This document shows, piece after piece, positions 1 to 15,441 of a DNA stretch of 64,000 nucleotides. The translations under genes and the position numbers were made by a program. The DNA is from an uncultured Planctomycetaceae bacterium (GTDB taxonomy: Bacteria; Planctomycetota; Planctomycetia; Planctomycetales; Planctomycetaceae): NCBI GenBank assembly GCA_963815195.1, contig CAWFGE010000020.1:32001-96000 (forward strand), read 5' to 3'. How positions within the stretch are numbered: the stretch's first letter is position 1; the number at the start of each line of letters is the position of its first letter. Below the pieces are notes generated by a model, which worked only from the letters and a program-made list of their open reading frames with translations, ran no database searches and was not told where the DNA came from.

Positions 1-1795
<1,795 letters not shown>

Positions 1796-1858
1796 TCCGC
1801 TTGTCTCCCTCTTTGATAGCCCCCTGTCTCGCCGGCGAACCGAGCAACCGGGGCAAAC

Positions 1859-1884
1859 GATCCGGAAGCGACATCTTCCGGATC
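1859..1884. promoter_or_regulatory. Perfect 10-bp inverted repeat upstream of clpC (possible operator or hairpin)
   Basis: GATCCGGAAG-N6-CTTCCGGATC, 64-89 bp upstream of the clpC ATG; does not match CIRCE. Confidence 0.3.
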
Positions 1885-2531
1885 AAAACATGATGCGGAA
1901 AATCCGCATCCCGATGGACGAGTTTTTAATGGGCGGGATTCGAGGAACCCCTTTAACATACCGCTTTGACGTTTCGTTTTGCCACAGATTTTTCGGGAAG
2001 TGATTTTGAACGGGTTTTTCCAATCATTTTCCGAGTGGGCGGGCCACTCTCCCTTATTTATACGCTATTTCACTTGCGGGAGTGGGATTTTTCCGAAATC
2101 CGGGGCGATTTGATCCGCAAACCCTGAGAGGGACATCATTTGAACCGTTTCGCCAAACTGGGCGAATCGAGAAGGAAACTCCGGCTGAGGATTATTTCTG
2201 GTCCACCCCACGAAAAGAGCAGCCGACGGCCTTTCGCGTCTCTTCCAAAGGCCCAACGGGCCAGCTTGAGCAACCGGAAATCCGTTTCGGTGAAGTTGGG
2301 GAAATTCTAGTCCCCATCCCCCGACGTGACAAGATACCCCGCGCGGGCAAATGGCGGCCGGCAAACTTCCGCGGATTGGGTGGGACGCCCCTGAGCGCAG
2401 CGAACAACGTGGCGACCGACGGACCACGCCCTTTGTTCCTCAGGCACGATTGTCGCGAGAAGCGCGTTCCTGCAAAATGAAACAAACCGCCGCAGCCCAA
2501 ACCGTCTAAAAATGGAAATCCCAGAAAGACC

Positions 2532-4094
2532 ATGTCCAGCCGTCCTTCCCGAAACACCCCCGGCGTGGAACGCATCTTGAAACTCACCCGCGACCTGGCC
2601 CTCCAATCGGCCGAGGCGGAGGTGCTGCCCTTCCATTTGTTGCGGGCGTTGGTGTTGGAAGAATCGCGCGGATCGGAGATTCTCCGTCAACATGGGCTGA
2701 CTTTGGACAAACTCCCGGCCGATCCGCCGCCAACAGTCGGCGAGAATCCACTGGGAACCGAACAACAGGAAATCCCCTTCAGCGAAGCCCTGAATGAAAT
2801 CCTCAAAACCGCCGACTTGCAATCGGGCCGGCAGGGGCGATACGCGGAATTGGGCAGCGAGCATTTGCTTTTGGGGTTGGCCGCCGTGTCTTCACCCGCC
2901 GCGGATTGGCTCCAAACCCACGGCCTCACCGCCGAGAAACTGCAATCGCTCCTCGATGACGCGGAAGGGCGCCCCGATGTTCCGCTCAGCGTGGACTTTG
3001 AACTGGCGGAACAGCGGCCCACCGCGACGGCGGAGACGGATTTGTTTCGCATCCTCGACGCCGCCGCCAACCGGGTGCGGGAAGGCGTGCGGGTTTTGGA
3101 AGATTACGTGCGGTTCGCCCGCGACGACAAGCATTTGACGTCGCTGCTCAAAACCTGGCGGCACGACCTCAGGGCTGTGCTTTCGGAAATCGACGACCGC
3201 CGGCTGCTCAGCTCCCGCGACACCGCGGGCGATGTGGGCACCGGAATCGGCACTCCCGGAGAACGGCACCGGCAATCCCTGCACGATGTGCTCCGCGCCA
3301 ACGCCAAGCGCGTGCAGGAAGGCCTGCGAACATTGGAGGAATACGGAAAAATCCGTTCGCCCAACATCGGCGAGGCGTTTTCGCAACTCCGCTACCGGTT
3401 TTACACGATCGAAAAGATCCTGGCCGTCAACGCCGAGAGCCGGCAAAAACTGGCGGACCGCAATCTCTATGTTTTAGTGACGCGGGATCAATGCCGGCTC
3501 GATCCGCAGACCGCGATCCGGATCGCGTTGGACGCCGGGGCGGACATCCTTCAAATCCGCGAGAAACACCTCTCGGATCGGGAACTCGTCGAATATGGAA
3601 AACAGGTCCGCGAATGGACCTGGGAAGCCCATGCGCTGTTGATCATGAACGATCGGCCCGATCTCGCCGTGCTGATCGACGCCGACGGCGTGCACGTCGG
3701 GCAGGAGGAACTCAGCGTCCGAGAGGCCCGGCGAATCCTCGGCCCGGACCGGTTGATCGGCGTCTCCACGCATTCGCTAAAACAAGCCAGGCAAGCGGTC
3801 AACGACGGGGCCGACTATCTGGGCGTCGGTCCGGTGTTCCCCTCGCACACAAAAGCCTTTTCCGAAACCGAATTGGCGGGACTGGAGTTCGTCCGCGAGG
3901 TGGCGGCGGAAATCACGCTGCCCTGGTTCGCCATCGGCGGCATCACGCCGGAAAACTTATTGGAACTCCGAACCGCCGGTGCCCAACGCATCGCCGTCAG
4001 CCATACGGTGTGCGGTTCGGAGTCCCCCGGCGAGATAGTGACGAAGTTGAAAGAAGCAATAGAGTTAAAGCCTTCAGCGGAACGACAAGGCTAA
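2532..4094 (+). CDS. thiE: Thiamine-phosphate synthase with N-terminal double Clp-N repeat and ThiD2-like domain
   Basis: C-terminal TMP-TENI motifs QIREK, MNDRPDLA, DGVHVGQEE, GVSTH, GPVFPSHTK, AIGGI; central RILDAAANRVREGVRVLED as in long cyanobacterial-type ThiE; N-terminal Clp repeats (PFHLLRAL, GSEHLLLGL). Confidence 0.88.
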   Translation: MSSRPSRNTPGVERILKLTRDLALQSAEAEVLPFHLLRALVLEESRGSEILRQHGLTLDKLPADPPPTVGENPLGTEQQEIPFSEALNEILKTADLQSGRQGRYAELGSEHLLLGLAAVSSPAADWLQTHGLTAEKLQSLLDDAEGRPDVPLSVDFELAEQRPTATAETDLFRILDAAANRVREGVRVLEDYVRFARDDKHLTSLLKTWRHDLRAVLSEIDDRRLLSSRDTAGDVGTGIGTPGERHRQSLHDVLRANAKRVQEGLRTLEEYGKIRSPNIGEAFSQLRYRFYTIEKILAVNAESRQKLADRNLYVLVTRDQCRLDPQTAIRIALDAGADILQIREKHLSDRELVEYGKQVREWTWEAHALLIMNDRPDLAVLIDADGVHVGQEELSVREARRILGPDRLIGVSTHSLKQARQAVNDGADYLGVGPVFPSHTKAFSETELAGLEFVREVAAEITLPWFAIGGITPENLLELRTAGAQRIAVSHTVCGSESPGEIVTKLKEAIELKPSAERQG

Positions 4095-4150
4095 TTGCCG
4101 GCGCGGCATCTCTATGAAATCTGAAATTCATCACACGATTGGAGTCCGTA

Positions 4151-5607
4151 ATGGGTCAATTGGCGATGCGATGCTCGCAGTGTGGCTCTCGAATCGTCGA
4201 GCCGCCTGGGACCGATCAGTTTGAATGTCCCTTCTGCGAGGCAATCACGTTGCTGGTTCCTGCCGAGGGTTCGGCGGCAGAGGTGAAGAGGCTCAAGCGG
4301 GACGAATCGGTCGATCTTTCGAGGTTCACCATTGATCTCGACAGGCAGGATCTGGAATTGTCGTGGGGTTGGGATCGACTCAAGGGAGTGGCGGCCATTC
4401 TGCTGGCGGGCGTCGTTGGCTGGTTCGGTTCGATTTATCTCCCGGTGGCCGGTTCGAGTCATGGCAGGATCGACTGGATCGCTCTGCTGACTGGCTTGGG
4501 CATCATCGCTGTTGCCATCGGACTCGGATATACCGGCGTGGCGTTGTTGTTCAACAGCACGAGAATTTCGATTCAGAACCGCGTACTGCAAATCTCGCAC
4601 GGGCCGCTGCCATACTATCCCCGCAAGGTAATTCCGCTCGCATCTCTTCAGGAATTGCGGGTCCATCGCGAGGTGACGAAAGATTCGGACGGCAAGACCA
4701 GCAGCGATTGGCAATTACATGCCTGCACCAGTTCGGGCCGCACGATTCGGCTCATCATGGACCAGGGTTCCTCCAAGGTACCGGCGCGGTCAAAAGCGTG
4801 CTCGACACCCACATTCGCCGACTGTCCGAGACTCCCGCAACACCCGTCGAACAGTCGAAACAGGGAACCTCCCGGAACAAACTCCGGCAACGTCGAAAGG
4901 TCGTACTGATCTGTCCGCAGTGTGGTGGACTCGTCGCGGCCCCCCGTAAAATCACTTCATCGAAATGCCGTTACTGCCGGTCGGAGTTGACGATTCCGGA
5001 TGAAGTGTGGGAGTCGGTGGGCCTGCATCCGCCGCGCCGGCGCAACATCGAGCACAAACCGGTCACGTTCGTGCTCCGCCACGAAGGGCCGGCGCTCACG
5101 ATTTCCGCCGGGTGGAATCGTGATGGGTGCGGTGTGCTGTTTCTGATCGGGCTGGCGTTTATGGGCATCGCGACGCTCGGCATCCTGCTGGCTCTTTGGA
5201 GCGACAATTGGTCTCTCATTGAAACCATGAAAGACGTCAGTTTGGCCGTTTCGCTGATTTCGCTGCTGATTGGCGTGGTGGGTTCCGTCATCGCCTATCT
5301 GGCTTTTTGTCTGATGTTCAATCGAACGGTGGTGACAATCGACCCATCTCGGATTGATGTCTGGAATGGCCCGTTGCCCGTGCCGGGGAACAGCCAACTG
5401 CCGACGGAGAAGATCGCCCAAATCAGCATCCATCCCAGCCGCGGCTACCACAAAACCCCTTGTTACCGACTGGACGCGATTTCCGACTACGGCGGGACGC
5501 TGCAACTGTTTTTCGACCAACCCGAACTTAAAGGACTGCAAACGATCGAACGCCTCATCGAACGCCGTCTGAATCTGGCCGACCGTTTGGTCCAATCCGA
5601 GGCTTGA
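4151..5607 (+). CDS. Membrane protein with two tandem [Zn-ribbon + 2 TM + PH-like] modules (frameshift near 4780)
   Basis: Module 1: CSQC..CPFC, WGWDR, 2 TM, LFNSTRI..HGPLP. Module 2: CPQC..CRYC, AGWNR, 2 TM, MFNRTVV..NGPLP. ORFs 4139-4909 and 4363-5607 join by a shift. Confidence 0.6.
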
Positions 5608-5650
5608 TGAACGGACTCATCGCCGCAAGGGCTTTCTATCTCTTTGGCAA

Positions 5651-5799
5651 AGCCGAGTAGGGCCGGCTGTGCCGGCCTTTTGTTTTTGACACAACGATTT
5701 TTCTCGCACCAAATGGCCGGCACACCCAGCCGCCAATTGGGCATAAGCATGATTCCCTTTGGTCGAAAAGGCCGGCACAGCCGGCCCTACGTCACTGGC
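5651..5799. repeat. 149-bp direct repeat, copy 1 (GTAG-type REP doublet / REPIN)
   Basis: Identical to 7053-7201; internal perfect 25-bp inverted repeat GTAGGGCCGGCTGTGCCGGCCTTTT (5657-5681) / 5766-5790. Confidence 0.92.
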
Positions 5800-6357
5800 G
5801 ATGTCATCATTGGAAAAGATGGCCGGCATCACACGATCGAGAGGATTTCGCAACGCTATGAGGAAGCGTTTCCGGTATCCAATCTCACGATTGGCGAATA
5901 CCACAATTATGCCGTCGGCATCCATTCGATTCTCGTTCACAACCAAACGATTTGCGGGGCAGGTCAGGCAGCCCTTCAGGACATGCTCGATTCCGGGACG
6001 GCCAGTTACGATGAAATCGCTCGTCTGGTTAAGGGGTTTGACAACGCTGATGAGGTGTTGGATAATCTCGTTAAAAGCACCGCGGCATTCCACCTGCATC
6101 ACACTTGGCCGAAATACCTCGGAGGACCAACCAAACAAGACCTCGTTCGTTTGCCGAAGAACATTCACGATGCCTATCACAGAGGCTTAGGCGGAATTTT
6201 GGATAGAAGAAGGGGAGCGGAATACTACGATGCACTGAGCGCGGCGGCTCGTAAGCTGATCGAACAAAAGCTTGCAAAATTTACGAAGGAATTCGATGCG
6301 CAGTATGGAACGAAATTGTGGGAAGCGATTCTGAAAAATGGGTTTCCAGGGAGTTAA
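5749..6357 (+). CDS. Orphan polymorphic-toxin tip: C-terminal half of pretoxin HINT domain plus HNH-like nuclease
   Basis: GDVI..DG..VSNLTIGEYHNYAVG..ILVHN is a HINT C-terminus; followed by HLHHTWPKYLGG..L..L..H..YH; N-terminal HINT half absent; in-frame ATGs come only from the repeat. Confidence 0.75.
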   Translation: MIPFGRKGRHSRPYVTGDVIIGKDGRHHTIERISQRYEEAFPVSNLTIGEYHNYAVGIHSILVHNQTICGAGQAALQDMLDSGTASYDEIARLVKGFDNADEVLDNLVKSTAAFHLHHTWPKYLGGPTKQDLVRLPKNIHDAYHRGLGGILDRRRGAEYYDALSAAARKLIEQKLAKFTKEFDAQYGTKLWEAILKNGFPGS

Positions 6358-6361
6358 TCAA

Positions 6362-6886
6362 ATGAAAAAGACCTTTACAGAGCTTTCAGTGAATGACATT
6401 TCAAAGTATCCTATTTGGAGGTTCACTAACAGCCACCCAGAGGACGAGCTTGAAATTGAATCCGTCACGGGTAGAGTATTTCACAACTTAAAGGGATTGA
6501 TCATCAGCTCGAAGGTCACGTTTTCAGATGGCTCGACACACTTAGCGTTGTTTCAGAATGTTAGTCTGGCCGGGCAAAAAGTGAACGACCATTTTCTGTC
6601 GCTAAGCGTGGAGAGAAATGGTGAATGGTTCCCGCTGGCGCAGTATCACAACCCCGCAATCGAGAAATACGGGCCTTTGCATCTTGCAGCATTCATGGGC
6701 AAAACCGTTGACGATGTCTTTCCGATCAAATACGACCTTCGCGAAGTATTGAATTCAAATTCGCCCAGGCTTGTTGGAATCGTATGTGCTGAGCCGCCCA
6801 TACGATTAACCGACGAAGAGATAATATCTTTGGCCTTAGAAGGTCTGCCAAAACCTCCGCTGAGGTCATCAGAAACCCTTGAATAG
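6362..6886 (+). CDS. Probable cognate immunity protein
   Basis: ATG 4 nt after the toxin stop, same strand, visibly lower GC, 174 aa; position is typical of an immunity gene. Confidence 0.6.
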   Translation: MKKTFTELSVNDISKYPIWRFTNSHPEDELEIESVTGRVFHNLKGLIISSKVTFSDGSTHLALFQNVSLAGQKVNDHFLSLSVERNGEWFPLAQYHNPAIEKYGPLHLAAFMGKTVDDVFPIKYDLREVLNSNSPRLVGIVCAEPPIRLTDEEIISLALEGLPKPPLRSSETLE

Positions 6887-6890
6887 CCGC

Positions 6891-7018
6891 GTAGGATCCG
6901 CTGTGCGGACCTTTGCTTTTGATTGTTTCCGCCCGCGACATCAAAGCCAAGTAGGGTCCGCTGTGCGGACCATTTGAAAAATCGATCTTATCTTATTGGT
7001 CCGCACAGCGGACCCTAC
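6891..7018. repeat. Cluster of three GTAG-type REP palindromes
   Basis: GTAGGATCCGCTGTGCGGACC (6891), GTAGGGTCCGCTGTGCGGACC (6951) and its reverse complement (6998-7018). Confidence 0.85.
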
Positions 7019-7052
7019 TTGCTTCGCGAGTGGTTAAGTAAGAAGTCGTTCC

Positions 7053-7201
7053 AGCCGAGTAGGGCCGGCTGTGCCGGCCTTTTGTTTTTGACACAACGAT
7101 TTTTCTCGCACCAAATGGCCGGCACACCCAGCCGCCAATTGGGCATAAGCATGATTCCCTTTGGTCGAAAAGGCCGGCACAGCCGGCCCTACGTCACTGG
7201 C
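7053..7201. repeat. 149-bp direct repeat, copy 2 (REPIN)
   Basis: Identical to 5651-5799, offset 1402 bp. Confidence 0.92.
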
Positions 7202-7239
7202 AACAAGTTGCCAGTGGCACCGGAATCTGGAGTTTCGCT

Positions 7240-7686
7240 ATGGAACTAACTACGCCCAAGCCTTCTATCGACGTGGAAGCGCATCTGCCAACCCTTGAGT
7301 CGTTAAAGAGTACGACTGTGCGTTTACACCCCCGCAGGGCGGAGGTCTCTGACGTCACAGCCAGCAAGATCGGCGGTATGATTCTCTGGCCGAAATGCGA
7401 ACCATGGCCGATGTGTGAAAGCGTGGAACCGCCAAGTTGGTGGGAGCTGGATTGGCCCATTCCTGACGACCGTTTAGATGATATTAGTGTTCCACTGGTA
7501 CCCGTGATTCAACTACGAGCCGATGATTTTCCTGAGATTGAGTTCTTTCCTGAAACTAATCTACTCCAGTTATTATGGTGCCCCTTGGACCATGAAGACC
7601 CGATTTTTGTTGCAAAGCCGTATTTGTACTGGCGAAAGATGGAAGAGGTGACTGAGCTTCTCCTGGAAGCGCCACACGTATATTAT
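7240..7686 (+). pseudogene. YwqG/DUF1963-like protein (immunity-like), truncated by IS1380
   Basis: TVRLHPRR..SKIGG..WP..WP.C..P.IQL..D.PE..LLQLLWCP..H; the frame runs into the IS terminal repeat at 7687 and does not resume after the IS. Confidence 0.6.
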
Positions 7687-9465
7687 CCCGGATTATTCAT
7701 CAGGTCCGTGCGTGGTGAGTATTTCCGTGGCGGAAAGTGCACCGGGTGGTTGGGGATCGGAGGATGGGCGGACCGCCCCCTTTCCCCCTGGGGCCTGGCG
7801 ATCGTTGGGTGAGTGAAGGAAAGAAACAGAAAGGCGGATGCCACGATGGCGAACTGCTCAGTCCCGAAGAACCAGTTGCTCATGGGCGTGACGTGGGAGA
7901 GGTGTGTAGGGCCGCGGGCGAGCTCCGCGCGGACGTGGCCAGAGGTTGGCCAGACGCAGCGATCGGATGCGGGAAGACATCGCGGCCCAAAACGCGCTCA
8001 CGCTTTCCTCAATGTAAATCACGAGGCGGCGGGAGTGCTTCACGACCCGCGCTCCTGTCCGCAGCACCGACTGCTGGAAACGATGCAAGTCCCAGCAACC
8101 GCCCAACTCGTCCTCGAACTCGATCCGCAGCATCGACGCCAGGTTGAACGCCAGCAGGCCCAACAGCAACGTCACTTCGTTCTCCGCAAACACCGATGAC
8201 GAAAGACGGCAGCCAATCACCGCGTTGAATTCGCCCAGCCGGTCCTCGAACGTGCCGCGCTTGCGGTAGTGCGACAACACCTCATCCGCCGAGCGTTGCT
8301 CCTCGGTCCAGTTTGTGATCAGGAAGAAGTAACGCGGAAACAGAGCCAGTTGGCCCGTCTTCGCCTCCGGCTTGTCGACGATGACCAGAATCACCCGCTG
8401 CGGATGACGCCAGCCCTCGGCTTGGTACTTTCCGAGTTCGATCACGTCCTCATATCCGCCTTTGGGCGGCCGGCCTACGGGACGTGTCAGATAGGGCGCG
8501 GCCATCTCTTCCAGCACGTTGTTCTTCTTGATTCTCCCGCAAAAACGGATGTTTTCGTCGGTCAACTCATCCAACACCGGGCCGGCGATGAAACCCGCAT
8601 CGATCCGGAGGTCGAAGCTCCACGCCAGTTGCCGGGCCTTGCCGACCACGTTGCGAATAAACCGCCGGATGCCATTGGCCGTATGCACGCTGCCTTGCCG
8701 CAGGATGGCATGAATGAAGCCGTTGCCCAGCCGCTGGCCTTCCCGCGTGCCGTCGTAGTCGCCGCCGACCGAGAAACTCGCGACCAGCGGATGATAGACC
8801 GTCTCTTTATAGTAACCGTTATAGCGGGCCCCCGGCTGCTGGCCATAAACCTGCATCGGGAAACTGTCGATGTCGATGGTGGCGTAGCGGACGCGGCGGT
8901 CGCTGTCGCCGGTGCTTTTGATGTGCCGATGGATCCAGTCGAACAAGGCGCTCCGCACGGCCTCGAGATTCGTCTTGCAGTCGGCCAGCCAATCGATGAG
9001 CCGGGATTGGGTGGGTTGGCTGGCCAGGCGTTGGTTGAGCACTTCTTCGCCGGGCCGGTCCCAGGCGGCCATCTTCATGGCGGGATCATGGGCGAGCCGG
9101 TCGAGATCATCCTGATCGGACTCTCCCAGGGCCATGGCGTAGATTCTTTCCCGCAGCAGTTCGACGCCTTGATAGCGGACGCGGTCTTGCCGGCGAGGAT
9201 CGATCAGTCGATCGGCAAGGGATTCGGTGAGTCCGAGCCGATGATCGAAGTCCCGCAGCAGAACGGCACCGGAGTGTGACGTGAGCCGCCCATCGACGGC
9301 CTTGACCTTGATGGAACGATTGAAATCGGGCTCGAAAATGTTAGGCTGAGCTTCACCCATCGCGTGATTCCTCCGTTTGGTTTCGGGATTGCGATATAAC
9401 CCTTAAACGCAGAGGGTCACGCGATGGTTCCTTCTTTTTTCATCTTTTTTGGTGAATAATCCGGG
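7687..9465 (-). mobile_element. IS1380-family insertion sequence
   Basis: Terminal inverted repeats CCCGGATTATTCA(T/C)CA at 7687 and ending 9465; flanks TTAT / TTAA are not a clean target duplication. Confidence 0.9.
7858..9360 (-). CDS. IS1380-family DDE transposase
   Basis: LTSHSGAVLL..DPR, LASQPTQSR, IDIDS..YGQQ.GA.YNGYY..YHPL, RIDAGF, Y.KRG..E. Confidence 0.92.
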   Translation of the reverse strand: MGEAQPNIFEPDFNRSIKVKAVDGRLTSHSGAVLLRDFDHRLGLTESLADRLIDPRRQDRVRYQGVELLRERIYAMALGESDQDDLDRLAHDPAMKMAAWDRPGEEVLNQRLASQPTQSRLIDWLADCKTNLEAVRSALFDWIHRHIKSTGDSDRRVRYATIDIDSFPMQVYGQQPGARYNGYYKETVYHPLVASFSVGGDYDGTREGQRLGNGFIHAILRQGSVHTANGIRRFIRNVVGKARQLAWSFDLRIDAGFIAGPVLDELTDENIRFCGRIKKNNVLEEMAAPYLTRPVGRPPKGGYEDVIELGKYQAEGWRHPQRVILVIVDKPEAKTGQLALFPRYFFLITNWTEEQRSADEVLSHYRKRGTFEDRLGEFNAVIGCRLSSSVFAENEVTLLLGLLAFNLASMLRIEFEDELGGCWDLHRFQQSVLRTGARVVKHSRRLVIYIEESVSAFWAAMSSRIRSLRLANLWPRPRGARPRPYTPLPRHAHEQLVLRD

Positions 9466-9482
9466 TTAACGTTAGGCGACAA

Positions 9483-9758
9483 GTGTTGCACCCTCATCAA
9501 CACCGCATTGATCTGTGCAACGCTGCTTTGGAATCTGTTCGTTTACGCATTCCCGAGGACTTCTATCGCGACGTTTACGATTACATCAACCGCCACAATG
9601 AATGGGGACTCGGTCTCGAAATCCTGATTGACCAGATCATTGAATACGAGATCAAGATCGCCCCAGACCACTTTGCCAAGATTCACGAAGCAATGAGTTC
9701 AATGGGCTTGGCTGAGACCGAGCGTGTCAAAAGCCTTCGAGAAGAAGTGGTCGCCTAA
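9483..9758 (+). CDS. Cassette 1: MafI-like immunity protein
   Basis: 91 aa with HNEWGLGLEILIDQIIEYEIKI motif; stop codon lies inside the attC inverse core GCCTAAC. Confidence 0.65.
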   Translation: MLHPHQHRIDLCNAALESVRLRIPEDFYRDVYDYINRHNEWGLGLEILIDQIIEYEIKIAPDHFAKIHEAMSSMGLAETERVKSLREEVVA

Positions 9759-9860
9759 CCACCGTCTGCAGTTGACCGGCGACGCCCGCGATGGATAATG
9801 AGTTGTCGGTTGTGAGTCTGCTCCCGCGGGCGGCCGGCAACTGAGCCTTTTACGTTATTT
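9753..9860 (+). other. attC site of cassette 1 (108 bp)
   Basis: R'' GCCTAAC; arm CTgCAGTTGaCCGGC pairs with GCCGGCAACTGAG leaving two bulged bases; R' GTTATTT. Confidence 0.88.
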
Positions 9861-9976
9861 TACTGAACGCGAGTCTATCGCCAATGGACGATCGCAACGG
9901 ATTTGTCGCCGACGGATAGCGAGCGTGAAATCCAGAAATGCCTCAACACTTTTGCTCCGCCGGGTGCTTTCTCTTA

Positions 9977-10259
9977 ATGGACTTCAATGAAAAAGAACAA
10001 CTGATCGTTGACCGTCTCCGCGATCACGTTTTTGGCGAAAATGGGCCGACACAATCTCTGCTCAATGAAGGTCGGTTGCCTAACGGATGGGCAACCGAAT
10101 ACTTGAATTTGCTACGGACTGCTACTGAACACTGGCAATTTCGACCGATGTGGCCCCGGGAACTGGTCGCTGCAATTCACTTTACTTCGTGGTATCTTGT
10201 TCTCCGATACGACGCATGGTGCGCAACGAACAATCGCAATGAAAACACTGAACGCGGCT
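9977..10259 (+). pseudogene. Cassette 2: hypothetical protein, 3' end apparently truncated
   Basis: MDFNEKEQL..WPRELVAAIHFTSWYL; the frame runs into a GGGTGGC palindrome; the expected inverse core AAATAAC is missing. Confidence 0.5.
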
Positions 10260-10348
10260 GGGTGGCATGCTCATTGCTTTGCATGAGCATGCTGAACTTC
10301 ACTTGCTTGGCAAACCCATGCTTGCCCAAAGCGGCAAGCATGCCACCC
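10260..10348. repeat. GGGTGGC-type REP doublet
   Basis: GGGTGGCATGCT ... AGCATGCCACCC with internal hairpins. Confidence 0.75.
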
Positions 10349-10363
10349 CGCCGTCGCCTCAAA

Positions 10364-10387
10364 CGCCCCTGAGCTTAGGCGTTATCC
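10364..10387 (+). other. Right-arm remnant of the cassette 2 attC
   Basis: CGCCCCTGAGCTTAGGC-GTTATCC; the core GTTATCC is complementary to GGATAAC of the next attC. Confidence 0.65.
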
Positions 10388-10422
10388 GACAGAAGACGAA
10401 TCTCACCACGTTGGAAACTGCA

Positions 10423-11028
10423 ATGGCGAAGAAAGTCCGCAAGAAAACGAAAGCCGAACTGGCTGACCCCGCCTTTCGGAAGCGTGCTTCCACGCGATCC
10501 GCAGTGCTGATGCAATCCTACGCCGCGAGCGAGAAACTGTCCAAATCACGGCATCAATACGTGCTCGATGTTGCTGACGATGCTTGGATCAGTCGGTTCG
10601 AACAAAATGACAACGCTGACGCGTTCGAGAAAGAGTGTCGCAAGTGGGAAAAGCTTCGCAGGGATTTTCTGAAATCCGTTGACAAGCCGCTGGAGATTCA
10701 TTGCTTCACCTGCAACTACAATGCATCGAGTGGCATGAAGCCGCTCATTCATTTGGTTAAACACCCATTGTGCGATGCTGGTACTGCGCTTCGCCTCTTT
10801 TGGATCAACGATCCGGTGTACTATTCTCAATACGCGACCATTTCGGAATGCCCATATAATGAAGAACGCGATGCAATGAAGCTGCTCAACGCAATCAAAC
10901 GACGATTCAAGAACGACGACTTCAAATCGCGCAAGATTTACTTCGACCCGCAACCTTGGATCGAGGCTGACGATGTCGATCTCGATATGCTGAACCTTCC
11001 AGATTCAATGCTCGCATCCGTGCCATGA
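10423..11028 (+). CDS. Cassette 3: DUF4274-like domain protein
   Basis: IHCFTCNYN...G..PL..LVKHPLCDAGTALRLFW matches the DUF4274 pattern H..YNW.G..P.CD.GTAL..FW. Confidence 0.65.
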   Translation: MAKKVRKKTKAELADPAFRKRASTRSAVLMQSYAASEKLSKSRHQYVLDVADDAWISRFEQNDNADAFEKECRKWEKLRRDFLKSVDKPLEIHCFTCNYNASSGMKPLIHLVKHPLCDAGTALRLFWINDPVYYSQYATISECPYNEERDAMKLLNAIKRRFKNDDFKSRKIYFDPQPWIEADDVDLDMLNLPDSMLASVP

Positions 11029-11042
11029 CACCTTGCGAGGTC

Positions 11043-11133
11043 GGATAACCAAGCGGTGAACGGGAGTCGCCGATGACGCGGATTTTCAAATCATAGTTTT
11101 TGGGCGGCGGCCCCGTTACCGCCATCGCTAAAC
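11043..11133 (+). other. attC site of cassette 3, core disrupted
   Basis: R'' GGATAAC; GGTgAACGGGaGTCGCC pairs with GGCGGCCCCGTTACC; the core reads GCTA and is interrupted by insertions at the TA. Confidence 0.8.
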
Positions 11134-11151
11134 CGACCTCGTGTCGGTTTA

Positions 11152-11341
11152 GTGTGGAGTCGAGTGATCGGCTCCGCGGGTGTGGCGTTCCGCCATACCG
11201 AACCCGAGAGAGCCGGGCGGTCTAGCTTTCCTTTGGAGCGATCGGCTTTCTTGGTCTTGCATTCGACGTCGTGGAGACGACGGTAAAGGATCCTCGAGTT
11301 GAGTGATCATGAGCAAAGACGCCGATCACTCAACTCCACAT
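11152..11341. mobile_element. TA-flanked MITE (190 bp) inserted at the attC core
   Basis: TAGTGTGGAGTCGAGTGATCGGC (11150-11172) vs reverse complement of 11321-11343, 21/23 match; no coding capacity. Confidence 0.75.
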
Positions 11342-11353
11342 TATGTGGCAAAG

Positions 11354-11764
11354 ATGGCAACGCTCATTGAAGATGTACGGAAGTCCGCCGATTGGGTCGC
11401 CAATGGTCTATCCAGTTCTGGATACAGTGCGGACTTCACAATTGAAAGCCTTAAAGAAATTGACCGCTTCTTCGATGAACACTCCCGCGATGGTGTGGCC
11501 GTCTCCGGCGGCCTTCTATCCGAACAGCTTGGTTCCCGAATTTTCGCAATTGGCTCATATGTCGGAGAGGTTATTCGCCGCAACGTTGGAGGCAGCTGGC
11601 AAGCAGATGACGATGACCCCGAAGGCGAAATGAACGTCCAATTGGTACAAGATAATGGCGGCACCATTTGGCCCGTTCAGCGTGTCATGAAACGATTCAA
11701 GAATGGCCCTGAAGACGGACTGTATGCTTACGGCGTCTTTGTCAGCGAAAAAGCGGACGGGTAA
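11354..11764 (+). CDS. Cassette 4: hypothetical protein, DUF3806/DUF6278-like (possible immunity protein)
   Basis: DFTIESLKEIDRFF..FAIGSYVGEVIRRNVGGSW..P..RV.KR; the upstream in-frame ATG falls in the MITE, so 11354 is preferred. Confidence 0.6.
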   Translation: MATLIEDVRKSADWVANGLSSSGYSADFTIESLKEIDRFFDEHSRDGVAVSGGLLSEQLGSRIFAIGSYVGEVIRRNVGGSWQADDDDPEGEMNVQLVQDNGGTIWPVQRVMKRFKNGPEDGLYAYGVFVSEKADG

Positions 11765-11837
11765 ACTGTTTCTTCAGCTACTTACATGGCTCTCTCGCCA
11801 TTGGCAACGAGCGGCTCAACGTCAACTCGCAAATGTC

Positions 11838-11946
11838 ACATAACGAATCGCTCAACTTGACCCGCCGCCTTCCCGGTAGTTTAATGGTTCTACAGAAACT
11901 CATACCCCGTCAAAATCCCGCGGGCAAGTTAGCTCAACCGTTAGCC
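11838..11946 (+). other. attC site of cassette 4 (109 bp)
   Basis: R'' ACATAAC; GCTcAACTTGaCCCGC pairs with GCGGGCAAGTTAGC; R' GTTAGCC. Confidence 0.88.
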
Positions 11947-11989
11947 GGCGGAGAGCATTGAGGTTCACACAAGTAACCGGAGGCAATCG

Positions 11990-13033
11990 ATGAAGCCGAA
12001 TGTGGAACGAGGGCAGCGGGTGGCGGCGTGGCTGGGTGTGGCCTGTCTGGGGCTGCTGCCGGTGTCGTCCCTGTCGGCACAAGAACCCAAGCTGCGGGCC
12101 ACCCTCAAGGGGCATACCGATGCGGTCGTGGCCGTGGCATTTAGCCCGGATAGCAAAACCTTGGCATCGGCCAGCTATGACGGGACGCTGAAATTGTGGG
12201 ACATGACCACAGGCAAAGAGCGAGCCACCCTGGGCGAGTACAAGGGCTGTCTCGGCTGTGTTGCGTTCTCCCCCGATGGGAAGACCCTGGCATCGGGGGC
12301 AATCGGATCGCCTGTCTACCTCCCCGACCTCAAGTACGTCAAGTTGTGGGACGTGGCCACCGGCAAGGTACGGACCACCCTTGAGGGGGAAACTTTCCAT
12401 GTCCACTCCGTGACATTCAGCCCGGATGGCAAAACCCTGGCCTCGGTGAACGGCGACGTCACGCTCTGGGACCTGGGCACCAACAAAGAGCGAGCCACCC
12501 TCAAGGGGCATACCAAAGAGGATAAGGAGACGAGCGAACCTGCATGGCCTGTCGAGTCCGTGGCGTTCAGCCCCGATGGCACGACACTGGCAGCGGCGAG
12601 CCATGATATGACCGTCAAAGTCTGGGACGTGGCCACCGCCAAGCGGTCCACCCTTCACGGGCATACCCATGCGGTCTATGCCGTGGCCTTTAGCTCGGAC
12701 AGCAAGACCCTGGCATCGGCGAGCGGCGACAAGACCGTCAGGCTCTGGGACCTGGCCACCAACAAGGCGCGGGCCACGCTACAGGGCCATACCGAGTCAG
12801 TAATGTCCGCAGCCTTCAGCCCCGATGGCAAGATCCTGGCCTCAGCAAGCCGCGACAAGACCATCAAGCTCTGGGATGTGGCCACCGGCAAGGAGCGAGC
12901 CACGCTCAAAGGAACCCAGGCGGTAAGGTCCGTGGCATTCAGCCCGGACGGTAGGATGTTGGCCTCTGCCAGTGGGACTACCGACAACGCGCCGGGTGAG
13001 TTGAAGGTCTGGGACATAGCCACCGGCAAATAG
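11990..13033 (+). CDS. Cassette 5: secreted WD40-repeat beta-propeller protein
   Basis: Signal peptide (..SSLSA-QEP); seven repeats of LKGHT..V..VAFSPDGK.LAS.S.D.T.KLWD. Confidence 0.92.
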   Translation: MKPNVERGQRVAAWLGVACLGLLPVSSLSAQEPKLRATLKGHTDAVVAVAFSPDSKTLASASYDGTLKLWDMTTGKERATLGEYKGCLGCVAFSPDGKTLASGAIGSPVYLPDLKYVKLWDVATGKVRTTLEGETFHVHSVTFSPDGKTLASVNGDVTLWDLGTNKERATLKGHTKEDKETSEPAWPVESVAFSPDGTTLAAASHDMTVKVWDVATAKRSTLHGHTHAVYAVAFSSDSKTLASASGDKTVRLWDLATNKARATLQGHTESVMSAAFSPDGKILASASRDKTIKLWDVATGKERATLKGTQAVRSVAFSPDGRMLASASGTTDNAPGELKVWDIATGK

Positions 13034-13056
13034 GCGGGCAGGTGGGGCTTATCTTC

Positions 13057-13220
13057 CGCGGGGTGGCCCAGGTTGCTCGCAACCTGGGTCGCGTAGCGAC
13101 AAGAGGTAATCGGGGTCGAGGAAGAGACGACACAGATTGTCCGTTGAGTACAAACCTCTTGGGCTTCGACCCCAGGTTGGCTTCGCCCCCAGGTTGGCAA
13201 GTAACCTGGGCCACCCCGCG
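13057..13220. repeat. GGGTGGC-type REP doublet
   Basis: Perfect 18-bp inverted repeat CGCGGGGTGGCCCAGGTT / AACCTGGGCCACCCCGCG with internal CCCAGGTT reiterations. Confidence 0.8.
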
Positions 13221-13377
13221 AACAACCGCGAACTCTTCGCAACCATGCAGCGGCCAAGGTGGTCGCGAGCCTTTCTTCGTCTGCGACGCAGCCCGCCTTC
13301 GAATTCAGCGAATTCACGCGATCGCCGGATGGACATTACGCAATTCTGGAAGCGTTCATCGGCAAGGCCTTCTTAGA

Positions 13378-14157
13378 TTAACAGTCGGCGAACGGGTCGT
13401 CCGGCGGTTCCGCGGGGGTCCAGCATTTGGCGGGGGACAAGGTTCCCAGGGTTTTGGCGAGATGCTCGGTCAACATCAGCAAACCGCCGGCGACGAGAAT
13501 CAGCGAGAACATCACGCACAACACCAGCAGCCCGCCGTGGATTTGCTGCACTTGCGCCAAGGCGACGCCGATCACGACCCCGAACACCAGCGAGACGGTC
13601 ACTGCGACGACGTCCGCGCCCAACAGGAGGGGATGGAGCTTGTTCGTGCCAAAGGGTTCCGGCGGCCAGATTTGGCGTTTTCGGAACCAGGAGACCGTGG
13701 AATCCACCCAGACCTTCATGCCCCGCCGCCAGGCGAGATAACAACCGATCCACGTGGACAGCGTGGCCAATCCGCAACTGACCCAGAGCGCGAACAGCGC
13801 CCCCAGAATCTCCGCTCCCGGAAATGCCAGCCGCAGGCTCGATGTGACGAGCCAAATGCCGAAGGTGAGCGCCACCGCGGTGAGGCTGATCTTCCAGAAG
13901 GCCAGCGCCAGATAAAACCAGAAATGCGTCTGGCCGCGTTGGGCGATCGGATCCCTCCGCCACAGCCAAAGCCCGTTGCGAAAATCGTACCAGCCGAATT
14001 TGAGGCAGGCGACCACGGCCACCAGCGAGGAGTTGGCGTGGAGTTCGAACAGCAGCCACGCGGTGCCCGCGACGATGATCCACACCAACCCCGACGGCCA
14101 CGCGCGGGCGGCGTCCTGCTCCAATTCCGGTTGATAGGTCAATTCTTCGGTGGCCAT
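13378..14157 (-). CDS. Hypothetical multi-pass membrane protein
   Basis: 259 aa with about six hydrophobic segments. Confidence 0.65.
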   Translation of the reverse strand: MATEELTYQPELEQDAARAWPSGLVWIIVAGTAWLLFELHANSSLVAVVACLKFGWYDFRNGLWLWRRDPIAQRGQTHFWFYLALAFWKISLTAVALTFGIWLVTSSLRLAFPGAEILGALFALWVSCGLATLSTWIGCYLAWRRGMKVWVDSTVSWFRKRQIWPPEPFGTNKLHPLLLGADVVAVTVSLVFGVVIGVALAQVQQIHGGLLVLCVMFSLILVAGGLLMLTEHLAKTLGTLSPAKCWTPAEPPDDPFADC

Positions 14158-14250
14158 GAGTTGAATCTACCCGTTGATGAGCCGGAACGGGCTCGCATTC
14201 GGTTCTCCCTATGAACCGGGGCTAGCACCCTGCGGCTAATCAATGCGACG

Positions 14251-15441
14251 CTAATCTTCATAGAGTGCATTGACGCTGGCAATACTTTGTCCCTCGCCAT
14301 TCGGGAATTTGTGTCCCTGAGCCATAAGGCAGCATTCGAGGGCCGCCAGGAATAATAAGACGTTGCGGGGCGTGCTGGCTTCGCCCATCAGGCCGATCCG
14401 CCAGGTCTTGCCCTTCATCGGTCCCAAGCCGCCGCCGATCTCGATGCCGAACTCGCTTAAGAGTTGCTTCCGCACGGCCACGTCGTCCACGCCCGCGGGG
14501 ATTTTGACGGCGTTGAGCATCGGCAAGCAATGCTCTTCCTCGACCGCGTATTCCACGCCGATCGCGTTCAACCCGGTTTTCAATGCCATATGATTCCGGC
14601 GGTGGCGATCGTGCCGGGCGGACAGCCCTTCCGCGAGCACCAGCCGCAGGGCTTCGTGGAGCGCGTAATTCATGTTGATGGGAGCGGTGTGGTGGTAGCT
14701 TCGCTGTTCGCCCCAGTAGTTCCGCACCATCGTCATGTCGAGATACCAACTCGCGACTTTGGTTTTGCGGTTGTCGATGGCTTCCACCGCGCGGGGGCTG
14801 AACGTGACCGGCGACAATCCCGGCGGGCAGCTCAGGCATTTTTGCGTGCCACTGTAAACGGCGTCGAGTTCCCATTCATCGACTTCCACCGGCACGCCGC
14901 CCAGCGAAGTTACGCAATCGACCAAGAGCAGCGCCCCGGCTTCGTGCACGGCTTTTGAAACGTCCGGCAACGGCTGCCAGGCCCCGGTGGAAGTCTCCGC
15001 ATGCACGATCCCCACGACTTTGGGATTGGATTTTTTGATCGCGGTTTGGATTTCTTCGACCGAAAACACTTCGCCGAAAGGCCGTTCGATGACGGACACC
15101 TCGGCTCCCGCACGTTCGGCAACATCGGCCATCCGCGCGCCGAACACGCCGTTCTTGCAGATGAGCATCCGGTCGCCGCGCTCGATCAGGTTGACCACGC
15201 AGGTTTCCATCCCGGAACTTCCGGTGCCGCTGACGGCGAGCGTCAATTCGTTCTTGGTCGAGAACACCCGCCGGAGCATGCTCTGCATTTCATCCATGAT
15301 CCGCAAAAAATAGGGATCGAGATGCCCGACCGTCGGGGCGGAGAGGGCGGCCAGAACGCTGGGAGCAATATCGCTCGGCCCCGGCCCCATCAAAATCCGG
15401 GACGGCGGAGCAATCGGCGCGGGCAATTCGGGGTTGGGCAT
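14251..15441 (-). CDS. Alanine-glyoxylate / serine-pyruvate aminotransferase (class V PLP)
   Basis: [60 protein letters not shown]. Confidence 0.93.

What the first reader, a model, noticed from the sequence alone, without database searches (positions are those of the whole stretch)
9466..13220. Integrase-less integron cassette array stocked with toxin-immunity-like genes
Seen: five co-oriented single-gene units separated by attC-shaped hairpins (9753-9860, 11043-11133, 11838-11946, plus remnants at 9471 and 10364-10387). Three cassettes show the diagnostic complementarity between their own leading core and trailing inverse core (one only after removing an insertion). The attC sequences differ from each other, suggesting several sources. 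There is no tyrosine recombinase in the window. The cargo looks like MafI-like, DUF4274-like and DUF3806/6278-like proteins plus a WD40 protein, directly downstream of an orphan toxin/immunity pair and a DUF1963-like gene. Inference: an integron-assembled acquired interbacterial-defence library in a planctomycete, serviced in trans or orphaned from its intI.
Basis: partly seen in the sequence, partly recalled or inferred. Interest (0 to 1): 0.85.

Follow-up and report, generated by a model that had tools for sequence, protein, structure and literature searches.

The report
Decaying integron array with immunity cassettes
This planctomycete carries a real but crumbling row of five integron gene cassettes with no integrase beside it; one cassette encodes a known toxin-immunity protein and a second is predicted to block a rival's DNA-cutting toxin, but the row is mixed cargo rather than a dedicated defence library.

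Summary
The array is real. A covariance model built from 22 non-window planctomycete attC sites scores the three hairpins at 33-65 bits (background 11 or less). All five genes are cassettes. The MafI cassette recurs in a second array of this genome, and the WD40 gene is a complete cassette in a same-genus genome. An intI lies on another contig, cut by the contig end, so service in trans is possible but unproven. The array is decaying: IS1380 removed its head, REP-like inserts destroyed two attC sites and one gene, and a 213-bp gene-less unit sits in a crossover. Cargo: MafI (above cut-off); a DUF3806-fold protein whose 61%-identical homologue is predicted to bind its upstream RHS nuclease (0.77 vs control 0.01); DUF4274, WD40 and a broken orphan show no toxin link. 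The IS between the array and the toxin pair has unmatched target flanks, so that neighbourhood is probably secondary. Named immunity families make up 4 of 18 att-anchored genes here and 2 of 55 in relatives: a tilt, not a library. Side results: integrase-less satellite attI sites are scattered in this genus (the scan noted a similar case on other DNA, e1-5224666). Verdict: a CALIN, a known kind.

The parts
7687..9465 (-). IS1380-family element (transposase 7858-9360). It abuts the first cassette core and has replaced the array head; its 5-bp flanks do not match (ATTAT / TTAAC).
   Evidence: Pfam DDE_Tnp_1_4 E 1.6e-74; 23 BLAST pieces genome-wide; 8 of 14 copies with both ends have exact 5-bp target duplications, this one does not
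9466..9478 (+). Remnant right end of an att site; crossover G9471|TTAGGC, the leading core of cassette 1
   Evidence: sequence; complementary to GCCTAAC at 9753; neither attI type was seen here
9483..9758 (+). Cassette 1 gene: MafI-family immunity protein, 91 aa
   Evidence: NF033691 55.1 bits, cut-off 31; 9489-9856 is 100% identical to G000:C21:246421-246788
9753..9860 (+). attC1, intact; contains a sigma-70-like site (9772-9799, 10 of 12 matches)
   Evidence: CM 32.8 bits; fold z -2.8; promoter scan found 4 sites vs 1.7 expected, weak
9977..10252 (+). Cassette 2 gene: member of a 118-aa planctomycete family of unknown function, broken off after about 92 codons
   Evidence: 14 homologues at 50-92% identity; alignment shows loss of the C-terminal helix
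10255..10353 (.). REP-like palindromic insert standing where the end of gene 2 and the left half of attC2 should be
   Evidence: inverted repeat I2; 48 BLAST pieces for this region in the genome
10364..10387 (+). Right half of attC2; crossover G10381|TTATCC, the leading core of cassette 3
   Evidence: sequence; contigs from three other metagenomes begin their match at 10380
10423..11028 (+). Cassette 3 gene: DUF4274 protein, 201 aa, all-helical, function unknown
   Evidence: PF14096 52.3 bits; 45 homologues; model pLDDT 93, best fold match only Z 6.1
11043..11133 (+). attC3, a widespread 91-bp planctomycete attC family; its core now reads G|CT because of the insert
   Evidence: CM 65 bits; alignment with four relatives, 92% mean column identity; a metagenome copy of cassette 3 ends at 11127
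11128..11340 (+). 213-bp gene-less mobile unit ('E') inserted between G and TT of the crossover; terminal palindrome plus long sub-terminal inverted repeats; its right part derives from a 127-bp attC family
   Evidence: 4 full copies (this one, G000:C16, two in G070:C41), 207-213 of 213 identical, all preceded by G and followed by TT
11354..11764 (+). Cassette 4 gene: 136-aa DUF3806-fold protein, predicted immunity protein against EC869-like PD-(D/E)XK nuclease toxins
   Evidence: fold Z 12.6, rmsd 3.3, 121 aligned to 3hlz; 61% identical to the L043 homologue, whose complex with its upstream RHS nuclease scores 0.77 vs best control 0.01
11838..11946 (+). attC4, intact; crossover G11940
   Evidence: CM 36.1 bits; fold z -2.0
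11990..13033 (+). Cassette 5 gene: WD40 beta-propeller with an N-terminal hydrophobic stretch, 347 aa
   Evidence: Pfam WD40; 11950-13061 is 92% identical to G130:C21:215695-216801, where it lies between an attI-like site and a 35-bit attC
13057..13220 (.). REP-like element standing where attC5 should be
   Evidence: inverted repeat I1; 35 BLAST pieces in the genome; identity to the G130 cassette stops at 13061; no CM hit

Best explanation
This is an integron cassette array without an integrase gene (a CALIN), likely built by IntI recombination at a planctomycete attI site and since cut off from its head and eroded by mobile elements; it holds one known and one predicted orphan immunity gene among mixed cargo. 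Steps: (1) IntI likely inserted circular cassettes one after another at an attI, oldest last: WD40, DUF3806-fold, the gene-less unit E, DUF4274, the orphan, MafI. The attC sites and cassette borders are shown; the order is inferred from the standard integron model. (2) The genus keeps several satellite attI sites without a working intI (shown), which a single integrase would serve in trans (inferred). (3) A deletion or rearrangement between two IS1380 copies likely removed this array's attI and promoter and placed it next to a DUF1963 fragment and a toxin/immunity pair (unmatched flanks shown; mechanism inferred). (4) REP-like inserts stand in place of half of attC2 and all of attC5, and E changed the attC3 core (shown). 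Most cassettes here are therefore likely locked in place. (5) If expressed from internal promoters, MafI and the DUF3806-fold protein would neutralise toxins of competitors (untested).
For: CM support from non-window sites. Borders fall on the crossover in independent DNA: identity with the C21 copy of cassette 1 ends at GTT and a different cassette follows; metagenome copies of cassette 3 run from 10380 to 11127; WD40 is a whole cassette in G130. intI is above cut-off at C25 and two 3' remnants lead other arrays; intI passes the cut-off in 41 of 151 family genomes. A 160-bp site ending AAG|TT follows a complete intI in G105 and recurs four times in this genome with no intI beside it; E sits at such a site in two genomes. 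IS flanks. Cury et al. 2016 name IS-driven rearrangement as a source of CALINs and find IntI elsewhere in about half of CALIN genomes (PMC4889954, passages). Immunity; no EC869-like toxin was found in this genome (no positive control).
Against: The C25 intI is cut by the contig end at 274 codons and no continuation was seen in three runs. In the two same-genus genomes intI is absent above threshold (G070) or has two stops (G130), so trans service may have ended. The C21 copy of cassette 1 has a different 5' end, so it is not a clean whole-cassette move. The IS junction was not bridged by any listed contig, so a misassembly across the repeat is not excluded. The binding prediction is for a homologue, not this copy. 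No expression data.
Confidence: 0.75

Rival explanations
1. The array is a selected, working acquired interbacterial-defence library: IntI in trans keeps adding orphan immunity genes, and DUF4274 and the unnamed genes are also immunity proteins.
For: MafI and the predicted nuclease immunity protein. Genome-wide, 4 of 18 att-anchored genes hit named immunity families above cut-off (MafI, two SMI1/KNR4, Imm22) vs 2 of 55 in relatives, one of them below cut-off. One DUF4274 homologue lies beside SMI1/KNR4 and DUF4274 is listed in a Stenotrophomonas T6SS cluster (PMC6653060, one passage).
Against: The tilt is weak: Fisher p 0.07 on the first counts, 4/17 vs 2/37; about 0.03 one-sided by hand on the final counts, with hand-picked ORFs and related genomes. 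Head and promoter are gone; two attC sites and one gene are destroyed. No toxin upstream of DUF4274 in 10 loci or of MafI in 4. Same-genus arrays carry ordinary integron cargo: GNAT, glyoxalase, beta-lactamase-like, FGE-sulfatase.
Confidence: 0.17
2. The cassettes were inserted one by one at a secondary chromosomal site (attG route) and the array never had its own attI.
For: Loot et al. propose this origin for small CALINs and SALINs (10.1101/2022.09.11.507474, passages). No attI is seen in front of the array. Same-genus G070 has no array beside either flank of this locus.
Against: The IS abuts the first core, so the original left border is lost. Both E and the WD40 cassette sit at true attI-like sites elsewhere in the genus, and most small arrays examined in this genus begin at an attI.
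Confidence: 0.12
3. The array is the downstream tail of the adjacent polymorphic-toxin locus (a toxin-displacement polyimmunity run), and the hairpins are incidental.
For: Co-orientation with a HINT-toxin C-terminal fragment (72% identical to PT-HINT proteins of 454-460 aa), its partner gene and a DUF1963-like fragment.
Against: Canonical attC sites with crossover-precise borders in other DNA; the IS with unmatched flanks lies between; no toxin fragments between the cassette genes.
Confidence: 0.04

Closest known systems
CALIN / SALIN (Cury et al. 2016, PMC4889954; Loot et al., 10.1101/2022.09.11.507474; passages read)
   Same: Cluster of co-oriented attC cassettes with no intI nearby; about the mean size (5); IS adjacent; intI elsewhere in the genome; diverse attC sequences.
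   Different: Nothing essential. Specific here: erosion by REP-like inserts, a gene-less unit with a non-canonical core, and sister arrays that begin at integrase-less attI sites.
rAID-1, recombinase-associated acquired interbacterial defence of Bacteroidales (Ross et al., 10.1101/471110; passages read)
   Same: Co-oriented small genes of foreign origin, some orphan immunity, separated by recombination-type intergenic sites; slightly lower GC than the host for four of five cassettes (49-53% vs about 59%).
   Different: rAID-1 is defined by a 5' XerD-like recombinase and up to 31 genes with tested protection. This array has canonical attC sites for IntI, no recombinase, at most 2 of 5 immunity genes and no tested protection.
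Integrons with co-oriented ('inverted') integrase (noted in PMC4889954, passage)
   Same: The intI loci of this genome and genus have intI, attI and cassettes in one direction.
   Different: The window array lacks both intI and attI; in this genus gutted intI-plus-attI platforms with one shared deletion junction occur at three loci of G070.
Gene-less cassettes of Vibrio superintegrons (Blanco et al., 10.1101/2023.11.21.568050; abstract and outline only)
   Same: E is a small gene-less unit at cassette crossovers, in front of a promoterless gene.
   Different: E has a G|CT ... A|TT junction instead of G|TT, and near-perfect inverted repeats with no extrahelical base; its promoter activity is untested.
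BT_1490 C-terminal domain (PDB 3hlz; Pfam DUF3806) and CdiA-CT EC869-like nucleases (PF21111)
   Same: Cassette 4 has this fold (Z 12.6, rmsd 3.3, 121 aligned); homologues follow EC869-like RHS nucleases in 4 of 76 loci.
   Different: No function is recorded for DUF3806 in the library searched (zero occurrences among the 10 listed papers); the immunity role is my prediction.

Membership tests
CALIN | [quoted passage not shown] | tested here: met
   three CM hits of 33-65 bits within 2.2 kb; own model, not IntegronFinder's
CALIN | No integron integrase nearby | tested here: met
   TIGR02249 search: no match in the window; intI only on C25, C21, C18
CALIN | Cassette borders at the G|TT crossover | tested here: met
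Complete integron | intI and attI adjacent to the array | tested here: not met
   IS1380 abuts the first core; no type B attI profile hit and no type A sequence seen
Complete integron / trans-serviced array | A functional IntI in the cell | tested here: inconclusive
   274 open codons above cut-off, cut by the contig end; no continuation in three runs
rAID-1 | 5' XerD-like recombinase over 44% identical to BF9343_RS08045 | tested here: not met
   no tyrosine-recombinase match in the window in a search that rang XerC/D-type genes elsewhere; the gene 5' of the array is a DDE transposase
rAID-1 / AID | Cluster made mostly of orphan immunity genes | tested here: inconclusive
   1 of 5 by family, 2 of 5 with the prediction; DUF4274 and gene 2 unassigned
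rAID-1 / AID | Expression and protection against competitor toxins | not testable with these tools
MafI immunity family (NF033691) | Score above the curated cut-off | tested here: met
   55.1 vs 31 bits
DUF3806 (PF12713) | Pfam gathering score | tested here: inconclusive
   no hit for cassette 4 itself; 15 of 84 members hit at E up to 0.05, one scanned member above cut-off; fold match Z 12.6
IS1111-attC or group IIC-attC element (considered for E) | Transposase or reverse transcriptase gene, or a full-length parent | tested here: inconclusive
   E has no such ORF; no longer parent among 151 family genomes; no Rfam match over it; insertion points of those families are recalled, not checked

The most novel reading that the evidence does not exclude
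Planctomycetes use true IntI integrons, spread over the chromosome as integrase-less satellite attI platforms, to collect orphan immunity genes against rival bacteria's toxins. The DUF3806 fold is a new immunity family for EC869-like nucleases, and the 213-bp unit is a selfish gene-less cassette that IntI moves through a non-canonical core and that locks or switches on its neighbours.
Probability: 0.25. Interest if true: 0.7.

Novelty: new member of a known kind. Interest (0 to 1): 0.42.

Why it matters
As a CALIN it is ordinary. Three by-products are worth keeping. First, a testable function for a DUF3806-fold family of over 1,100 clusters: immunity to RHS/CDI EC869-like nucleases. Second, canonical attC cassettes here carry interbacterial immunity genes. 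In my searches I found only an analogy paper, the rAID-1 paper and a one-phrase mention (PMC11089894), so a census could extend integron function beyond antibiotic and phage resistance. Third, the 213-bp unit and the satellite attI sites bear on the open question of how CALINs arise and whether IntI accepts cores other than GTT.

Tried and rejected
Rfam over 4000-14500: one chance miRNA match at a REP hairpin, nothing over the array. PHROGs: 0 of 7 proteins. PDB sequence search with the cassette-4 profile: nothing below E 0.0039, unrelated; Foldseek gave no match at E 0.001 or better, with 3hlz ranked 2. DUF4274 fold search: only generic helical repeats, best Z 6.1; this neither supports nor excludes an immunity role. 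The ESM Atlas was not available. My heuristic attC scans gave many false hits and were used only to find training sites; the genome-wide CM runs scored only 150 candidates per genome and missed two of the window's own three sites, so the attC census is a lower bound. Idea that the window array is the lost other half of the C21 array: no IS1380 end in the assembly has the matching flank, so not supported. Reading E as a TA-duplicating MITE: rejected, because the four copies share only G before and TT after. Looking for the 3' end of intI in runs X1, X21, X8: no cover beyond position 1979 of L008, no proof of absence. A paper search including 'MafI' was swamped by unrelated text. The census of further same-genus loci L157-L173 was not finished: their attC sites were found (22 hits) but their genes were not read because the script machine was lost. 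Supplements of the papers were not read; cassette annotation tables there could list immunity families.
Full report
Setting. The window is G000:C20:32001-96000 of an 8.87-Mb, 25-contig genome, 94.6% complete. Named homologues of two cassette proteins come from Gimesia, Fuerstiella and other planctomycetes.

The attC sites are real. I built a covariance model from 22 attC sites taken from other loci of this genome and from relatives, none from the window and leaving out the duplicate of attC1. Its structure covaries: 88% of cells paired vs 68% in shuffles. Over the 64-kb window with filters off it found 11043-11133 (65 bits), 11838-11946 (36) and 9753-9860 (33); the next of 11 listed matches had 11.4 bits. 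attC3 belongs to a 91-bp family whose kin were in the training set, which inflates its score. Remnants lie at 9466-9478 and 10364-10387.

The units are cassettes. Window 9489-9856 (MafI gene plus attC1) is 100% identical to C21:246421-246788. The identity stops at the GTT core, and a different cassette follows in each place. The 5' ends differ, so the C21 copy is a fusion, not a clean transfer. Contigs from three other metagenomes begin their match to cassette 3 at 10380, and one ends at 11127; these are its two crossovers. The WD40 gene has no attC behind it in the window, but in same-genus G130 a 92%-identical copy lies between an attI-like site and a 35-bit attC with complementary cores. 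Homologues of cassette 4 have an attC directly behind them in 2 of 80 loci, and DUF4274 homologues in 2 of 10.

Integrase. TIGR02249 found no match in the window. It found an intI above cut-off at the end of contig C25 (274 open codons, cut by the contig end) and two 3' remnants on C21 and C18, each followed by co-oriented cassettes. No continuation of the C25 gene was seen in three public runs. intI passes the cut-off in 41 of 151 family genomes; of the two same-genus genomes, G070 has none and G130 has one with two stops. Trans service is therefore possible but not shown.

Decay. An IS1380-family element (7687-9465) abuts the first core. Eight of 14 copies with both ends have exact 5-bp target duplications; this copy is one of six that do not. 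That points to recombination between two copies or a misjoin, and either way the left neighbours are not the array's original ones. Those neighbours are a HINT-toxin C-terminal fragment (72% identical to PT-HINT proteins) with a partner gene, enclosed by identical 149-bp repeats, and a DUF1963-like fragment (below cut-off). A REP-like insert breaks gene 2 at about codon 92 of a 118-aa family and stands in place of half of attC2; another stands in place of attC5. The REP label is my reading of multi-copy palindromes, not a database hit.

The 213-bp unit E. It lies between G11127 and T11341. Four full copies (window, G000:C16, two in G070) are 207-213 of 213 identical, and every one has G before and TT after; two sit at an attI-like site and two behind an attC. 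Its right part is 80% like a 127-bp attC in G077; joined end to end it would form a 30-bp near-perfect stem. Only G000 and G070 hold full copies among 151 genomes. IntI-mediated movement is the simplest reading, because the crossover is all that the four targets share. But its junctions (G|CT, A|TT) lack the canonical triplet, so this is inferred. Gene-less cassettes with promoters are known in Vibrio (10.1101/2023.11.21.568050, abstract).

Satellite attI sites. A 160-bp sequence ending AAG|TT follows a complete intI in G105 and recurs in G000 at C16, twice on C15 and on C8, none beside an intI match, and in G070 and G130. It matched in 15 of 151 family genomes. A second attI type follows the C25-type intI; gutted intI-plus-attI copies with one shared deletion junction occur at three loci of G070. 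Neither type is seen before the window array. I found this before reading scan note e1-5224666, which reports a like arrangement on other DNA; that note is not independent evidence.

Cargo. Cassette 1 is MafI (55 vs 31 bits). Its four family homologues have no toxin upstream. Cassette 3 is DUF4274: no informative fold, no toxin upstream in 10 loci read by eye, one SMI1/KNR4 neighbour. Cassette 4 has 1,127 cluster representatives and the fold of the BT_1490 C-terminal domain (Z 12.6, rmsd 3.3, 121 aligned; next Z 4.9). Of 80 genome loci, 76 had an upstream ORF to scan. Three related Streptomyces have an RHS protein ending in an EC869-like nuclease (PF21111) 84-92 bp upstream, and one Polyangium has a similar C-terminus 17 bp upstream, by alignment only at 27% identity. 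Most others sit among unrelated genes, nine behind DUF1385; some picked ORFs were shadow frames, so 4 of 76 is a lower bound. The L043 pair scored 0.77 against a best control of 0.01, with contacts agreeing in at least 98% and partner pLDDT at least 93. That mark was reached by 116 of 157 solved complexes and 2 of 215 mismatched pairs, and the counts hold only roughly with my alignments. The model supports binding; it does not show it. Cassette 4 is 61% identical to that protein, with 13 of the 23 listed interface residues identical by my count. No such toxin was found in G000 (no positive control), so cassette 4 would be an orphan.

Is the cargo enriched? Of 18 distinct att-anchored genes in G000, four hit named immunity families above cut-off: MafI, two SMI1/KNR4 and Imm22. 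Of 55 cassette genes from relatives, one hit SMI1/KNR4 above cut-off and one below. The 55 are 36 of 58 automatically called ORFs (I dropped those that looked like shadow frames or duplicates), one added by hand, and 18 from same-genus arrays picked. Fisher p was 0.07 on the first counts and about 0.03 one-sided by hand on the final ones. With hand-picking and related genomes this is a tilt, not proof. The genome also has immunity-like genes among repeats with no attC (C20:123-126 kb).

Comparison. It meets the CALIN definition. IS-made CALINs and CALINs in IntI-encoding genomes are described (PMC4889954, passages), as are scattered CALINs in Xanthomonas (10.1101/2025.06.18.660453, passages) and a planctomycete attC model (PMC8352920, passages). 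It works partly like rAID-1 but lacks its recombinase (10.1101/471110, passages). Four searches for integron cassettes with immunity cargo gave an analogy paper (PMC5361080, listing only), rAID-1, and one phrase in PMC11089894 (passages). A term search of 10.1101/2024.07.02.601686 found no mention, and PMC8527097 and PMC11434368 were false hits. The library lacks most subscription papers, so this is not proof of absence.

Verdict. Observation confirmed; interpretation partly supported. A decaying CALIN with two likely immunity cassettes, a new member of a known kind, interest 0.42. The predicted immunity function, the gene-less unit and the satellite attI sites are the leads worth following.

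Noticed in passing
G000:C16:108358-108522, C15:523839-523997, C15:665209-665365, C8:394405-394551; L021:8704-8865; L144, L145, L153, L020: A 160-bp attI-type site ending AAG|TT, linked to a complete co-oriented intI in G105, recurs without intI at four places in this genome and in both same-genus genomes, each heading one or a few cassettes. In L153 its last 60 bp sit directly behind an attC, as if moved by IntI.
   Followed up: partly
L146, L150, L152 (G070); L006, L007 (G000 C21, C18): Gutted intI genes (upstream region fused to the last 80 codons or fewer) plus a second attI type; three G070 loci share the same deletion junction, so the gutted platform was copied after the deletion.
   Followed up: partly
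L043, L044, L089, L083 around 4300-5400: DUF3806-fold gene directly behind RHS proteins ending in an EC869-like nuclease; predicted complex 0.77 vs 0.01.
   Followed up: yes
window 5644-6886: HINT-toxin C-terminal fragment (HHxWPKYLGG motif) and a 174-aa partner with no family hit, enclosed by two identical 149-bp repeats (5651-5799, 7053-7201).
   Followed up: partly
window 10255-10353, 13057-13220; G000 C15:178699, C16:107571: REP-like palindromes repeatedly stand where part of an attC is missing, suggesting that they fix cassette genes by destroying attC sites.
   Followed up: no
L146:3878-5748; G000 C21:249196: The same IS1380 also sits inside or at the end of attC arrays in G070 and on C21.
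   Followed up: no
L024:568-5858: G046 array of eight near-identical attC sites where most cassettes show no clear co-oriented gene; possibly inverted or gene-less cassettes.
   Followed up: no
window 76-1959: The clpC-like gene reads in two frames, as does htpG on C21; likely long-read indel errors in the assembly.
   Followed up: no
L124 (G000 C20:123600-125700): Run of immunity-like genes (SMI1-like and others, by eye) among repeats with no attC hit.
   Followed up: no
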